DNA of 64,000 nucleotides from Anolis carolinensis. Taxonomy: Eukaryota. Every line of letters begins with the position of its first letter. Within the stretch, counting starts at the first letter, position 1. A program made the translations under genes and the position numbers. The notes beneath the pieces were generated by a model. That model was given only the letters and a program-made list of their open reading frames with translations, did not search any database and was not told where the DNA came from. The stretch is from NCBI RefSeq assembly GCF_035594765.1, contig NC_085846.1, positions 21,315,190 through 21,379,189 on the forward strand. Reading direction: 5' to 3'. Positions 5,488-27,049 of the stretch are shown piece by piece.

Positions 5488-5624
5488 TCAGCACAGAATC
5501 CACTTCATGTCAGTATCAGCATTCGCTGTGAGGGAACACCAGCGCATTCTGTCATTTCGACCAGCTCTGGTGCAACTGTGGTATGATTTGCCACGAAAAA
5601 CAAAGGGGAAGACACAGTCCATTT
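5488..5624 (-). CDS. FN2 domain 15, terminal coding exon ([17 protein letters not shown]...[18 protein letters not shown])
   Basis: Manual translation; ttag acceptor; TGA directly follows the last Cys. Confidence 0.87.
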
Positions 5625-8600
5625 CTAATTGAGGGAGAGAAAAAAGCAAATAAGAATGGTGAGATTAAGAGTCTATTTTAGAGAGATAAAAAGAAATACA
5701 AATTATTATTATTTTCATTATTCTTTCCACACAGTGTAAGCAGTGACGATCTTTTATTCTCTCTCTCTCAATGAGCTCCCTGCACACATGTTTCACTTCT
5801 GGTTGACGTTGCTCTATACAAGGTATCTAGGTGGCTGCAATAGGTACAGCTATCCCATGCATTTATACCTGGAGCATCTACAGAATGATTAGTCCAGAAT
5901 ACCCACCTTGGGGACATGTAGTGAAGGCTCAGGCAGAAATGCAGTAGTTTAACTGTTTCCCCAAACACTGGATAAAATAAATGTCCTGCCTACCGCTTTT
6001 ATGGTTGATGTCCTGCAGATGAGTTTTGTTAGATCACACATCATTTAGGACTATTTTGTCCAGCCAACCATTATTTCTTAATGCTATATTCTTCAAAGCA
6101 CATCTCAAGGGGACTTGCTAGATTGGAATATAGAGGTGTGCCTACACTGTAGAATTAATGTAGGTTGACACCACTTTAACTGGTTCTATGCTATGGAATC
6201 AAGTGATCTACTTTGTTGGGAAAAGAATGTAAAATTACATGTGTATTTTTCCCCTTGGGAAGAAGAAGCAATGCAGAAAGAAATGTGAAAACAATTTTCT
6301 TCTTTTATCTTTTTTTCTGTTTTTTATTAATTATTTTCTTTATTTTTTGCAGTTAAAAAAAGAAACATTAAAGTATATTTGGACAAAACCGAAGGTGATT
6401 GTGAACCGAGAAATGTCTTCAAGAACCTTGTGAAAATAAAAATATTAAAAAACTCTCATGATTTAACCAGAAGGGAGATAGATTTCGAATATTAGTTGTG
6501 ATGATGTGGGTTCCTTGTTATGCACTGCGTATGAAGGGCTCCCTGTGGATACTAAAATCCATGGATGCTCAAATCCATATATAGAGGCATAGGTATACTT
6601 TGTGAGCTATTCCTTTAAAAATAAATGCATTTTTTGAATAGTTTACCCTTGAAGTAGTAATTAGTTTCATAAAAGCCCAGATCCTAGTTGTAGGGATAAA
6701 GGCAGATTCCTGTGCTTGTTTGTTTGTTTCTATTTTTCTAGAGGGGCATAACAAGGGGAACCATCATTCCTGCACTTCAACATATACAGTGACATCATTG
6801 CACAAGAGCCAAGTAACATTCTGACCTCATATGCAAATCTAAGCATATGCCATGAATTTAGTAATTCATTTATTTAAAACCATTGCCGTATTTCCTTAAT
6901 TGGTCAGTAGCCCTATCAATACAAACAATCAACCCCTCCCTTGTTTATTTGCCTCTCGTATTCTGCTCACCATTGCATAATCTCCACTTCAAACCAGTTT
7001 TGGAGTCTGGGATGGTAGCACACCAGGCTTTCCCTTCAATTTGATCCTCTGGGGTGCAGCTTTCATACAATTTTTCTTTATAGGTGAAAGGAAAAACACA
7101 GCCTGTCTCTGAATTGGGAAAAAAATGGGGGTGGGGATGGAGAGAAAGACAATAAGGAAACAGCTGAATTTCCAAATGGAAATGATTATAATTAAATCCT
7201 GTAATTTCCAGGAATCCTGAAAACTGTAGTTTGGAAATGTCTTCACTATACAGTAGAGTCTCGCTTACCCAACCTCCACTTATCCAACATTCTGTATTAT
7301 CCAACACAGTCGGCCTTTTAGTAGTCAATGTTTTTGTAGTCAATGTTTTCAATACATGGTGATATTTTGGTACTAAATTCATAAATACATTAATTACTAC
7401 ATCATGTTACCATGTATTGAACTGCTTTTTCTGTCGATTTGATGTAAAACATGATATTTTGGTGCTTAATTTGTAAAATCATAATGTAATTTAATGTTTC
7501 ATAGGTTTTTCCTTGATACCTTCTTATTATCCAACATTTTCACTTATCCAACGTTCTGCCGGCCTGTTTATGTTGGATAAGTGAGACTCTACTGTATTTC
7601 TTTGAACTCCTGGCATTTTTTTTCATTTTGAATTCCTTGTTGCAGGGGTAAACTCAATTGCTGAGAGTATCAGTAACTCACAATATAATAATACAGTAGA
7701 GTCTCGCTTATCCAATGTAAACAGGCCAGCAGAACGTTGGATAAGCGAATATGTTGGATAATGAGAGATTAAAGAAAAGCCTATTAAATATCAAATTAGG
7801 TTATGATTTTACAAATTAAGTACCAAAACATCATGTTATACAACAAATTTTACAGAAAAAGTAGTTCAATACACAGTAATGCCACGCAGTAATTACTGTA
7901 TTTACGAATTTAGCACCAAAATATCATGATGTATTGAAAACATTGACTACAAAAATGCGTTGGATAATCCAGAACGTTGGATAAGCGAATGTTGGATAAG
8001 TGAGACTCTACTGTAATAATAATAATAATAACTTTATTTATAACCTGCCCTATCTCCCCGAAGGGACTCAGGGAGGCTTACAACAAAATAAACACAACGG
8101 CAAACATTCAATGCTGACAGTGATATATAAACCAATTATAAACAAACTTAATAAAATTACAAAAACAACTTAAATACACAAGACATAACACAATCCACAC
8201 AATTATAACATACTAAATCCTTAAAATCTCTTTAAAAATCACTAAAACTTCGACTAAAATATTGGAGAGAAGATAGTAAATAGCAGATTAACAGAGGTAG
8301 ATATTAGCAGCTACGCAAGAGTGCATATAGGTGTACTTAATCCTCCTCCTGTTATCTATCTTATTGCAAAGGATTGCTTCTCCTTCAGGGCTATTCATGT
8401 GACCTTAGGAGAGAGGATTCCCCTCCTCTACGCCTCTTTCTATCTCCTCCCTCTTCCTTGCTATTCTCAAACTGGCTGTTTTCATTTTATTTTATACAGC
8501 ATTTTTTTAATGCTGAAATTGTACAATTGCCACTTGGTATGGGGACACTGATGCAGGTGTGACCTGGAACCCCTGCAACTGTGTTTATACTTTGAGTTCA

Positions 8601-26600: not shown

Positions 26601-27049
26601 AGTCTTTCAGAAAAAGTGGTAACCCATATTCAACAGGAAATTGGACAAAGTAACAGGAATTCAAGCAGCAACTCTCAGCAGTTAAACATTCTAAAACTTG
26701 TGCATAGATGGACACATTTTGGGTTTTCCAAGATTGGTTTACATTTTTAAAAAATATAACTGAAGTTCTTTCTATCCTATGTATGAAGAAATATTCCAAG
26801 GCCAGTATCTGACAATTCCATTCAACCATATGAAAAGTCCGGTTCATAACAATAATAATTTTGCTCTCTCATGGGATCATCTCACGGGTGCACAAGCATT
26901 GAGGAAAGCATATCTAACTCTTTATTGTTATTTTCTGACACCATCTAAAAAACTTAAGACTCTCTATTGGCATTAATGTTACCTTTGCCATCTGTGTGGG
27001 CTTGTTGGAGATTGCTGACAAATGCCAGGAGGGCCAGGAATCCAAACAT
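5488..27049 (-). CDS. Whole gene model: secreted FN2-only protein with signal peptide and 15 tandem FN2 domains (16 coding exons, 2469 nt, about 822 aa); ELSPBP1/BSP-like architecture, MMP2/9-like repeats
   Basis: Fifteen exons each encode C-x-FPF-x-[YF]...C...WC...W-x-x-C, mostly with NYD. All junctions are GT-AG and phase 1, internal exon lengths are multiples of 3, and the frame is open from ATG 27049 to TGA 5488. Confidence 0.88.
6971..7108 (-). CDS. FN2 domain 14 exon, divergent ([17 protein letters not shown]...[18 protein letters not shown])
   Basis: ttcag acceptor, GTGAGC donor, 138 nt. Confidence 0.85.
7251..7594 (-). mobile_element. Tc1/mariner-type MITE
   Basis: TIRs CAGTAGAGTCTC...GAGACTCTACTG flanked by TA. 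Confidence 0.85.
7694..8013 (+). mobile_element. Tc1/mariner-type MITE, same family, opposite orientation
   Basis: Same TIRs and TA target duplication. Confidence 0.85.
9036..9365 (+). mobile_element. Sauria SINE
   Basis: tRNA-like head (ggtggctcagtg...ggttcaaat), conserved body, (ACCTTT)n tail. Confidence 0.85.
9428..9592 (-). CDS. FN2 domain 13 exon ([17 protein letters not shown]...[18 protein letters not shown])
   Basis: tctag acceptor, GTAAGA donor, 165 nt. Confidence 0.9.
9715..9945. mobile_element. Penelope-like element terminal-repeat fragments in inverted arrangement
   Basis: About 9749-9838 is inverted against about 9854-9944; contains the CTGAGGA...GAAAC hammerhead-like core. 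Confidence 0.7.
11475..11639 (-). CDS. FN2 domain 12 exon ([19 protein letters not shown]...[21 protein letters not shown])
   Basis: Manual translation; ccag acceptor, weak GTATCA donor, 165 nt. Confidence 0.85.
12209..12376 (-). CDS. FN2 domain 11 exon ([19 protein letters not shown]...WRFCQEDS)
   Basis: ctcag acceptor, GTGAGA donor, 168 nt. Confidence 0.9.
13405..13533. other. Assembly gap (N) inside an FN2 gene intron
   Basis: Run of N. Confidence 1.
13622..13786 (-). CDS. FN2 domain 10 exon ([19 protein letters not shown]...WMYCNIP)
   Basis: atcag acceptor, GTAGGA donor, 165 nt. Confidence 0.9.
14569..14733 (-). CDS. FN2 domain 9 exon ([19 protein letters not shown]...WVYCNDT)
   Basis: caag acceptor, GTAGGA donor, 165 nt. 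Confidence 0.88.
16028..16641. mobile_element. Non-autonomous hAT element carrying CR1 3' fragments and (GAT)n
   Basis: CAGGGGTT...AACCCCTG termini; 8-bp TSD ttctatag/ttctgtag. Confidence 0.7.
16846..17010 (-). CDS. FN2 domain 8 exon ([19 protein letters not shown]...[18 protein letters not shown])
   Basis: acag acceptor, GTAAAG donor, 165 nt. Confidence 0.88.
18621..18782 (-). CDS. FN2 domain 7 exon ([17 protein letters not shown]...[19 protein letters not shown])
   Basis: ctcag acceptor, GTAAGG donor, 162 nt. Confidence 0.9.
19266..19386 (+). mobile_element. Heavily 5'-truncated CR1 LINE 3' end
   Basis: (ATTCTATG)n tail; identical to 45531-45643. Confidence 0.9.
19788..19922. mobile_element. 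Palindromic hAT MITE (about 135 bp)
   Basis: Same family as 28424-28554. Confidence 0.75.
19924..20604 (+). mobile_element. Non-autonomous Helitron
   Basis: A|TC 5' end, subterminal hairpin (cctgggcaacgctggg), CTAG|T 3' end, no TSD. Confidence 0.75.
20644..20808 (-). CDS. FN2 domain 6 exon ([19 protein letters not shown]...WVYCNVT)
   Basis: ccag acceptor, GTAAGA donor, 165 nt. Confidence 0.9.
21154..21321 (-). CDS. FN2 domain 5 exon ([19 protein letters not shown]...WKFCEKDS)
   Basis: NAGNAG acceptor (21321 or 21324), GTAAGG donor, 168 nt. Confidence 0.88.
22280..22450 (-). CDS. FN2 domain 4 exon ([17 protein letters not shown]...[18 protein letters not shown])
   Basis: ttaag acceptor, GTAGGA donor, 171 nt. 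Confidence 0.9.
22520..22726. mobile_element. Penelope-like element terminal-repeat fragments in inverted arrangement
   Basis: Same family as 9715-9945; cores at 22603-22640 (-) and 22652-22689 (+). Confidence 0.7.
23164..23325 (-). CDS. FN2 domain 3 exon ([23 protein letters not shown]...[19 protein letters not shown])
   Basis: Manual translation (this frame is not in the ORF track); ctcag acceptor, GTAGGA donor, 162 nt. Confidence 0.9.
24483..24641 (-). CDS. FN2 domain 2 exon ([14 protein letters not shown]...[17 protein letters not shown])
   Basis: ccag acceptor, GTAAGA donor, 159 nt. Confidence 0.92.
26324..26470 (-). CDS. FN2 domain 1 exon ([18 protein letters not shown]...[17 protein letters not shown])
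   Basis: ttcag acceptor, GTGTGT donor, 147 nt. Confidence 0.9.
26983..27049 (-). CDS. FN2 gene exon 1, signal peptide [22 protein letters not shown]
   Basis: ATG, hydrophobic core and A-H-T cleavage-like site; ends AAAG|GTAACA in phase 1, matching exon 2. Confidence 0.8.

What the first reader, a model, noticed from the sequence alone, without database searches (positions are those of the whole stretch)
5488..27049. Secreted protein made only of 15 FN2 domains with gelatinase-like repeats
Seen: a signal peptide and 15 FN2 exons, with no catalytic, transmembrane or other domain, and a stop directly after the last Cys. Known: mammalian FN2-only proteins have 2 (BSP) or 4 (ELSPBP1) domains, and MMP2/9 have 3. 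Repeats here ([13 protein letters not shown], [18 protein letters not shown]) resemble the gelatin-binding FN2 modules of MMP2/MMP9. Inference: a highly multivalent collagen/gelatin or choline-lipid binder, such as an opsonin, matrix anchor, protease decoy or sperm-coating protein, probably uncharacterised.
Basis: partly seen in the sequence, partly recalled or inferred. Interest (0 to 1): 0.75.

Follow-up and report, generated by a model that had tools for sequence, protein, structure and literature searches.

The report
Lizard secreted 15-FN2 binding protein
This is a real lizard gene, shared with snakes and other lizards, for a secreted chain of 15 small binding modules related to mammalian sperm-coating proteins; it probably sticks to membranes or collagen through many weak contacts, and nobody appears to have studied it.

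Summary
Observation confirmed. A signal exon and 15 FN2 exons, all phase 1 with AG/GT ends, splice in silico into an open 823-aa frame with 60 Cys, no membrane helix and a stop after the last Cys. Database fragments labelled Anolis carolinensis match 8 exons at 100%. Single models with the same first three and last three domains exist in snakes (13-15 FN2; corn snake 64% identical end to end), Hemicordylus (13), Podarcis (18) and geckos (8); only the middle array varies. The 'gelatinase-like' label is only partly right. Domains 1-3 are collinear with ELSPBP1 domains 2-4, linkers included. Gelatinase marks are mostly absent (GRxD 2 of 15 against 54 of 54), while the PDC-109 choline-pocket Trp106 is kept in 14 of 15. 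However, the middle repeats are closer to MMP9 than to ELSPBP1 by identity, and a shared origin with MMP is not rejected. Best reading: a non-catalytic, avidity-based binder of choline lipids, and probably gelatin, from the reptile ELSPBP1-like ('ESP') cluster. Tissue and ligand are untested, and no RNA evidence was obtained for this species. It is a new variant of a known kind.

The parts
26983..27049 (-). Exon 1: start codon and probable signal peptide, phase-1 donor
   Evidence: similar N-termini in orthologues P0425, P0005, P0438
26324..26470 (-). Exon 2, FN2 no. 1 (N-cap; aligns to ELSPBP1 domain 2)
   Evidence: starred clade with first domains of 4 other squamates
24483..24641 (-). Exon 3, FN2 no. 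2 (EHGGNS linker, ends CADT; aligns to ELSPBP1 domain 3; full choline-pocket tetrad)
23164..23325 (-). Exon 4, FN2 no. 3 (WCSLT type; aligns to ELSPBP1 domain 4)
22768..22845 (-). Probable decayed 16th FN2 exon in intron 4, where snakes and geckos have an intact domain
   Evidence: 15.0 bits against at most 9.3 in 20 of 20 shuffles of the masked window; two Cys lost; not significant at DNA level
22280..22450 (-). Exon 5, FN2 no. 4 (central array; full tetrad)
   Evidence: acceptor choice has in-frame alternatives
21154..21324 (-). Exon 6, FN2 no. 5 (central array; weak acceptor; absent from the Sceloporus model)
20644..20808 (-). Exon 7, FN2 no. 6 (central array; full tetrad)
18621..18782 (-). 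Exon 8, FN2 no. 7 (old duplicate of exon 4; full tetrad)
16846..17010 (-). Exon 9, FN2 no. 8 (GRRDR loop, lacks the Trp106 equivalent, as in orthologues)
14569..14733 (-). Exon 10, FN2 no. 9 (central array)
13622..13786 (-). Exon 11, FN2 no. 10 (central array)
13405..13533 (.). Assembly gap (129 N) inside intron 11
   Evidence: the Sceloporus model joins the flanking exon types directly
12209..12376 (-). Exon 12, FN2 no. 11 (closest to exon 6; full tetrad)
11475..11639 (-). Exon 13, FN2 no. 12 (central array; weak donor GTATCA)
9428..9592 (-). Exon 14, FN2 no. 13 (first of C-cap)
   Evidence: linker TITKTG identical in snake P0002
6971..7108 (-). Exon 15, FN2 no. 14 (C-cap, divergent)
5488..5624 (-). 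Exon 16, FN2 no. 15 (GRNDR loop) and stop directly after the last Cys

Best explanation
One squamate-conserved gene of the FN2-only ELSPBP1/BSP-related group (the reptile 'ESP-like' cluster) encodes a secreted, acidic, non-catalytic chain of about 92 kDa: three fixed N-cap modules, a middle array that grew and shrank by phase-1 exon duplication, and three fixed C-cap modules. Shown here: gene anatomy, conservation, ELSPBP1 collinearity of the N-cap, pocket residues. Inferred: each module binds weakly through its aromatic pocket. Most modules have the PDC-109 arrangement for phosphorylcholine (choline on Trp, phosphate on Tyr), and FN2 modules of BSP also bind gelatin. Fifteen modules on short linkers give strong binding by avidity, so the protein coats or cross-links choline-lipid surfaces. 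The most likely setting is an exocrine secretion, by homology the male reproductive tract (sperm coating); that setting is a guess.
For: Open 823-aa frame, no membrane helix. 520 of 813 aligned residues identical to corn snake P0002, collinear from first to last residue. Both caps present in single models from snakes, Hemicordylus, Podarcis lilfordi and two geckos, with 8 to 18 domains. A 1,027-base unnamed ENA contig encodes signal peptide plus four orthologous domains (P0440), which by its length must be spliced RNA of a relative. Exons 2-4 against horse ELSPBP1 72-223: 68 of 151 identical, one gap, scores 423-462 for 5 ELSPBP1-type proteins against 378-420 for 5 MMPs. PDC-109 pocket residues Y75/W93/Y100/W106 (PMC2823774, passages; numbering checked on 1h8p): W106 14 of 15, all four 5 of 15 here and 96 of 173 in orthologous domains; 0 of 54 in MMP9/2 and 20 of 44 in ELSPBP1. 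BSP block W-x-Y/F-C in 10 of 15 against 0 of 54 (blocks from PMC4557993). BSP5 domains bind both phosphatidylcholine and gelatin (PMC4476173, passages). Model of P0002 shows 15 separate FN2 units with low-confidence linkers.
Against: No binding or expression data. The central repeats are closer to MMP9/2 than to ELSPBP1: three-domain windows score higher on MMPs in 12 of 13 cases, and grouping 12 central domains with MMP is not rejected (p-AU 0.34). The tetrad is incomplete in 10 of 15 domains. The Y75 equivalent is also Tyr in both fibronectin FN2 modules and W106 is present in MMP repeat 3, so these residues do not fix the ligand. Paralogues were reported from varanids and Cylindrophis in venom-gland literature (10.1101/006031, PMC8708286, passages), so the family may not be confined to the male tract. 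The window's neighbours are SNAD1 and natterin-like genes, not the LIG1/CABP5/SULT2A1 context of ELSPBP1. The structure model is low in confidence (mean pLDDT 57.8, pTM 0.19), which does not prove flexibility.
Confidence: 0.55

Rival explanations
1. Mainly a collagen/gelatin binder (matrix adaptor or decoy that competes with MMP2/MMP9 for denatured collagen); the central array may descend from a captured gelatinase-type exon.
For: Central repeats 54-60% mean identity to MMP9/2. MMP plus central domains as one group not rejected (p-AU 0.34). 48 of 173 orthologous domains have Arg at the GRxD position, and 16 of the 18 that lack W106 are among them. Y/F-x-x-D after the third Cys kept in 11 of 15. 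Best PDB matches are MMP9 and MMP2, though these are ranked by summed score.
Against: GRxD 2 of 15 and Gly before F-C 0 of 15 here (0 of 173 in orthologues) against 54 of 54 each in MMP9/2. MMP linkers all carry G-N-x; central linkers are Pro/acidic. Best sauropsid paralogue scores at least as high as best MMP in 11 of 13 windows. MMP domains form one side of the tree in both trees (86/87, 98/93). The role of the Arg in gelatin binding is recalled; one search found no source.
Confidence: 0.22
2. Same pocket chemistry, but used in innate defence: a plasma or mucosal protein that recognises phosphorylcholine on microbes, parasites or dying cells and agglutinates or opsonises them.
For: Choline-type pockets. 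Neighbours are a SNAD1 secreted deaminase gene and three natterin-like genes; fused models in relatives place chemokine (IL8 domain) and natterin genes next to the cluster. Paralogues named in venom/oral-gland literature.
Against: Gene neighbourhood is weak evidence in vertebrates. No effector domain. High conservation (snake models from several families fall in one 90% cluster; dN/dS 0.14-0.38) is unlike an arms-race gene. No expression data.
Confidence: 0.15
3. The 15 exons are not normally joined: the locus makes short isoforms or two or three ELSPBP1-sized genes.
For: Anolis and Pogona database entries are fragments (P0073, P0276, P0222, P0072, P0033, P0027, P0439). P0440 ends by reading into an intron after four domains. 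Some splice sites are weak. Snake isoform models skip domains.
Against: No second signal exon is known; no internal stop at a domain end; the exon 14-15-16 junctions recreate linkers seen in snake, gecko and lacertid models; both caps co-occur in single models in at least 8 species. All exons are symmetric, so skipping would shorten the same protein.
Confidence: 0.08

Closest known systems
[quoted passage not shown]
   Same: Signal peptide plus FN2 only, stop at the last Cys; its domains 2-4 are collinear with FN2 nos 1-3 here, with EYGGNS/EHGGNS and CADTR linkers; W106 kept, GRxD and G-F-C absent.
   Different: 15 domains against 4; twelve extra domains are no closer to ELSPBP1 than to MMP9; gene context differs in this window; epididymal expression untested.
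BSP / BSPH (PDC-109, 2 FN2)
   Same: Pocket residues and terminal W-x-Y-C block; WCSL block in 3 of 15; ends at the last Cys.
   Different: Two domains only; listed only for therian mammals in PMC4557993; no BSP sequence was in my trees.
Reptile 'ESP' proteins (ESP-Vkom1, ESP-Cyl-1) and ELSPBP1-like paralogues with 4-9 FN2
   Same: Same three-domain unit and linkers; 71-76% best core identity to exons 3, 4 and 7; fused models put them directly downstream of this gene in Podarcis, Pogona, Sceloporus and Paroedura. A reptile-specific expansion of unclear orthology was noted in 10.1101/006031.
   Different: They repeat the N-cap triplet; they lack this gene's central array and C-cap, so they are paralogues.
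MMP2/MMP9 collagen-binding domain (3 FN2)
   Same: Same fold; central repeats up to 71% identical in the core; shared [15 protein letters not shown] stretch with repeat 3.
   Different: No pro, catalytic or hemopexin domain; GRxD mostly and G-F-C wholly absent; MMP domains group apart.
Uncharacterised RefSeq models LOC117668957 (corn snake), LOC120314564 (tiger rattlesnake), LOC106542189 (garter snake), LOC128330723 (Hemicordylus)
   Same: Orthologues: same caps, same order, 13-15 FN2.
   Different: Computer predictions without a described function; central arrays differ in number and order.

Membership tests
ELSPBP1-like FN2-only group | Signal peptide followed only by FN2 domains, no enzyme or membrane part | tested here: met
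   orthologues give only fn2 in Pfam
ELSPBP1-like FN2-only group | Collinear domain triplet with EYGGNS and CADTR linkers | tested here: met
   exons 2-4 against ELSPBP1 72-223
ELSPBP1-like FN2-only group | Domains group with FN2-only proteins and not with gelatinases | tested here: inconclusive
   MMP apart at 98/93; MMP plus all gene domains p-AU 0.049; MMP plus central domains p-AU 0.34; 43 columns, no reliable root
ELSPBP1 proper | Four FN2 domains | tested here: not met
   15 domains
ELSPBP1 proper | Context LIG1/CABP5/BSPH/SULT2A1 (PMC4557993) | tested here: inconclusive
   Only SNAD1 and natterin-like genes recognised in the 64 kb; no genome held
ELSPBP1 proper | Epididymal expression and sperm binding | not testable with these tools
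   no expression data obtained
BSP/BSPH | Exactly two FN2 domains | tested here: not met
BSP/BSPH | Phosphorylcholine pocket Y75/W93/Y100/W106 | tested here: inconclusive
   complete in 5 of 15; W93 15, W106 14, Y100 12, Y75 8 of 15; binding not tested
Gelatinases MMP2/MMP9 | Propeptide, zinc catalytic and hemopexin domains | tested here: not met
   tblastn of full MMP9 hits only FN2 exons
Gelatinases MMP2/MMP9 | GRxD loop and G-F-C end in every FN2 repeat | tested here: not met
   2 of 15 and 0 of 15 against 54 of 54 (17 MMP9 and 1 lamprey MMP2); human MMP2 seen agrees

The most novel reading that the evidence does not exclude
The protein is a two-ligand cross-linker: choline-type modules (Trp106 kept, Met in the loop) alternate with conserved collagen-type modules (GRxD, Trp106 lost, such as FN2 no. 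8), so one chain tethers choline-lipid membranes (sperm, lipoproteins, microbes, dying cells) to collagen or epithelium, with reach and avidity tuned by an array of 8-19 modules. In the reproductive tract it could be a sperm anchor suited to long-term sperm storage in lizards and snakes (storage recalled, not from a call).
Probability: 0.18. Interest if true: 0.72.

Novelty: new variant of a known kind. Interest (0 to 1): 0.45.

Why it matters
It shows that the FN2-only BSP/ELSPBP1 design, studied almost only in mammals with 2-4 domains, has a strongly conserved high-valency form across squamates, with fixed caps and a variable middle. That gives a natural series (8, 13, 15, 18 modules) for testing how FN2 ligand choice and avidity evolve, and a named candidate for reptile seminal or mucosal proteomics. 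It also repairs a fragmented Anolis annotation. The interest is limited because orthologous models already sit in databases, long FN2-rich models occur in other vertebrates, and the mechanism is borrowed from homologues.

Tried and rejected
Assembly artefact or haplotype duplication: rejected. Pseudogene: rejected (open frame; dN/dS). Truncated gelatinase: rejected. All domains arising from one exon inside this gene: disfavoured (p-AU 0.026; groups were named after seeing the tree). Concerted evolution of repeats within species: not seen; species labels are not clustered (in that tree exon 9 was missed, so labels WIN_E9-E15 mean exons 10-16). Sequencing runs: no RNA holder listed among 24 rows; no read-level evidence on splicing or tissue was obtained. 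No genome is held for this window. Single-sequence fold failed (pLDDT 31). The 38-sequence alignment A2 was poor and dropped. Fold search only re-found FN2 proteins. Atlas search gave FN2/ELSPBP1 clusters at 0.87-0.90. Earlier scan findings: nothing in 3 of 3 look-ups. Literature: searches found no paper on this gene; one search was too broad to be useful; one search found no source for gelatin-binding residues; two recalled Fry et al. papers are not held. No fibronectin, mannose-receptor, BSP or amniote MMP2 sequence was available for the trees. No complex prediction was sent, since neither choline nor collagen is offered.
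Full report
What is there. A motif scan of all six frames found FN2 cores at 15 places between 5488 and 26470, all on the minus strand. Each passes Pfam fn2 (15 of 15). A 67-base exon at 27049-26983 encodes a hydrophobic N-terminus. With AG/GT ends chosen in phase 1, the 16 exons give 2,472 bases, 823 residues, one stop (directly after the last Cys), 60 Cys, 9 NxS/T sites, about 92 kDa and pI 5.1 after residue 20, and no membrane helix. Exons 5, 6 and some others have alternative in-frame acceptors, and exon 13 has a weak donor. 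Full MMP9 as tblastn query hits only the FN2 exons.

It is not an artefact. Exon pairs are at most 84% identical in DNA and the similarity stops within 37 bases of the exons. For 7 chosen pairs dN/dS is 0.14-0.38. With the 15 exons masked, one further FN2-like stretch at 22768-22845 scores 15.0 bits against at most 9.3 in 20 shuffles. It has lost two Cys and lies where snakes and geckos have an intact domain, so it is probably a dead exon; at DNA level it is not significant. A 129-N gap lies in intron 11; the Sceloporus model joins the flanking exon types directly.

Relatives. A profile of the 15 domains found 1,980 proteins among 7,999 candidates scored; the best 120 were listed. P0073, P0276 and P0222, labelled Anolis carolinensis, and P0198 (source not looked up) match 8 of the exons at 100% in the core but are fragments. 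The top hit, corn snake LOC117668957 (820 aa, 15 FN2), aligns end to end at 520 of 813 identical residues. Its 90% cluster has 15 members from colubrids, vipers, elapids and a boa. The first three and last three domain types occur together in single models of Pantherophis (15, 14), Crotalus adamanteus (15), C. tigris (15, 14), Thamnophis (14, 13), Hemicordylus (13), Podarcis lilfordi (18), Heteronotia (8) and Gekko kuhli (8). The non-gecko models among these end at W-x-L-C, and the linkers TITKTG and NEMD/NEAD/NESD recur. In a tree of 74 orthologous domains, the types of exons 2, 3, 4+8, 15 and 16 form starred cross-species clades, the central repeats are largely unresolved and species are not clustered (exon 9 was missed there and labels are shifted). 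So the caps are fixed and the middle changed by old and some recent duplications. Against a clean picture: other models are split (Pogona, Anolis sagrei) or fused to a downstream paralogue (P. muralis, Pogona, Paroedura, Sceloporus); all are predictions. The only transcript-like record is P0440, 256 aa on a 1,027-base unnamed ENA contig: signal peptide plus four orthologous domains, ending in intron read-through. No RNA evidence was obtained for this species. Models with many FN2 domains and little else also occur in sardine (17), platypus (11), frog (10), reedfish (10), turtles and emu (7), so 15 is not a record.

Gelatinase-like or ELSPBP1-like. For ELSPBP1: exons 2-4 align to horse ELSPBP1 72-223 with one gap and 68 of 151 identities, sharing E[YH]GGNS and CADTR; MMP9 needs five gaps. 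GRxD is in 2 of 15 domains and Gly two residues before the last Cys in 0 of 15, against 54 of 54 each in 18 gelatinases (17 MMP9, 1 lamprey MMP2) and 0 of 44 each in 11 ELSPBP1. That Gly is present in 41 of 61 fish and frog FN2-only domains, so its loss marks the amniote group rather than function. MMP domains form one side of a branch in both trees (17 rows, 86/87; 9 rows, 98/93). For MMP: the central repeats have mean core identity 54-60% to MMP9/2 and 42-48% to ELSPBP1; 12 of 13 three-domain windows score higher on MMPs than on ELSPBP1, although the best sauropsid paralogue matches or beats the best MMP in 11 of 13. Holding 12 central domains with MMP is not rejected (p-AU 0.34); holding all 23 gene domains with MMP is borderline (0.049). 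The trees have 43 columns, no reliable root, a simple model, and lack fibronectin, mannose receptors, BSP and amniote MMP2. I read the likeness as retention of the family consensus, with capture of a gelatinase exon not excluded.

How it most likely works. PDC-109 binds phosphorylcholine through W93/W106 and Y75/Y100 in its second domain (PMC2823774, passages; positions checked on 1h8p). The equivalents here: W93 15, W106 14, Y100 12, Y75 8, all four 5 of 15; all four in 0 of 54 MMP and 20 of 44 ELSPBP1 domains, and in 96 of 173 orthologous domains from 14 models (fused models were cut to their orthologous part, and 3 incomplete domains were dropped). The BSP end block W-x-Y/F-C is in 10 of 15 (blocks from PMC4557993, parts 1-3 of 6 read). 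BSP5 domains bind both PC liposomes and gelatin (PMC4476173, passages), so the two ligands are not exclusive. These residues are suggestive only: fibronectin has the Y75 equivalent and MMP repeat 3 has W106. Of 18 orthologous domains lacking W106, 16 carry Arg at the GRxD position, against 32 of 155 with W106. The domains are related, so this is a few conserved module types, such as exon 9, and not independent events; a few of the Arg are outside a true GRxD. The role of that Arg in gelatin binding is recalled, not sourced. An alignment-based model of the snake protein shows 15 separate FN2 units with low-confidence linkers (mean pLDDT 57.8, pTM 0.19), matching solved single FN2 modules at 1.0-1.5 A. 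Inferred mechanism: weak pockets summed by avidity to coat or cross-link choline-lipid surfaces and probably gelatin, with no catalysis or signalling of its own. I put this at 0.55, a mainly collagen-binding role at 0.22, innate defence at 0.15 and separate short genes at 0.08.

Context and literature. Upstream lie a SNAD1 gene and three natterin-like genes; fused models in relatives add V2R, olfactory-receptor, chemokine and natterin neighbours. The ELSPBP1 context of PMC4557993 was not recognised in the window. Two paralogues carry the names ESP-Vkom1 and ESP-Cyl-1. A bioRxiv preprint says these belong to a reptile-specific expansion of unclear orthology and are not shown to be venom components (10.1101/006031, passages; its supplementary tree was not seen). 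PMC8708286 and PMC3847709 (passages) only list the name. Seven searches found no paper on this gene; the library lacks most subscription journals.

Verdict. A real, conserved, unstudied secreted protein. It works like a BSP/ELSPBP1 protein by inference and belongs to the reptile ELSPBP1-like cluster; it is not ELSPBP1, a BSP or a gelatinase by their defining features. New variant of a known kind; interest 0.45.

Noticed in passing
window 30476-31060 (minus strand), with a likely upstream exon near 31950-32070: SNAD1-type secreted AID/APOBEC-like deaminase gene (Pfam PF18744, E 6e-49), 3.4 kb upstream of the FN2 gene on the same strand.
   Followed up: partly
window 38969-40009, 50067-51173, 61400-62434 (plus strand): Three natterin-like ORFs with DM9 repeats, one with a weak aerolysin match; 52-55% identical to the natterin part of Liasis P0112, a model that fuses 4 FN2 to natterin, which suggests the two gene groups are neighbours in pythons too.
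   Followed up: partly
window 22768-22845 (minus strand): Probable decayed FN2 exon in intron 4, its 3' end next to a repeat that recurs at 9714-9944.
   Followed up: yes
P0044, P0148 (snake 'MMP9-like' models): MMP-type N-terminus followed by 3-6 near-identical FN2 repeats; no zinc motif seen in P0148. Fish and skate MMP9-like models P0016, P0025, P0052 have 6-10 FN2. May be mis-assemblies or FN2-expanded gelatinases.
   Followed up: no
P0003, P0007, P0009, P0021 (Anolis sagrei, Paroedura, Tiliqua): Other long FN2-only paralogues (9-16 domains) built by repeating the N-cap triplet, so high valency arose more than once in this cluster.
   Followed up: partly
P0015, P0017, P0069 (frog, fish): Models with 6-15 FN2 followed by sushi domains, a possible complement-linked relative.
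   Followed up: no
window 42765-43553 and 44767-45549 (plus strand): Reverse-transcriptase-like ORF pieces of LINE type (class recalled); SINE-like copies near 9036-9360 and 27935-28260.
   Followed up: no
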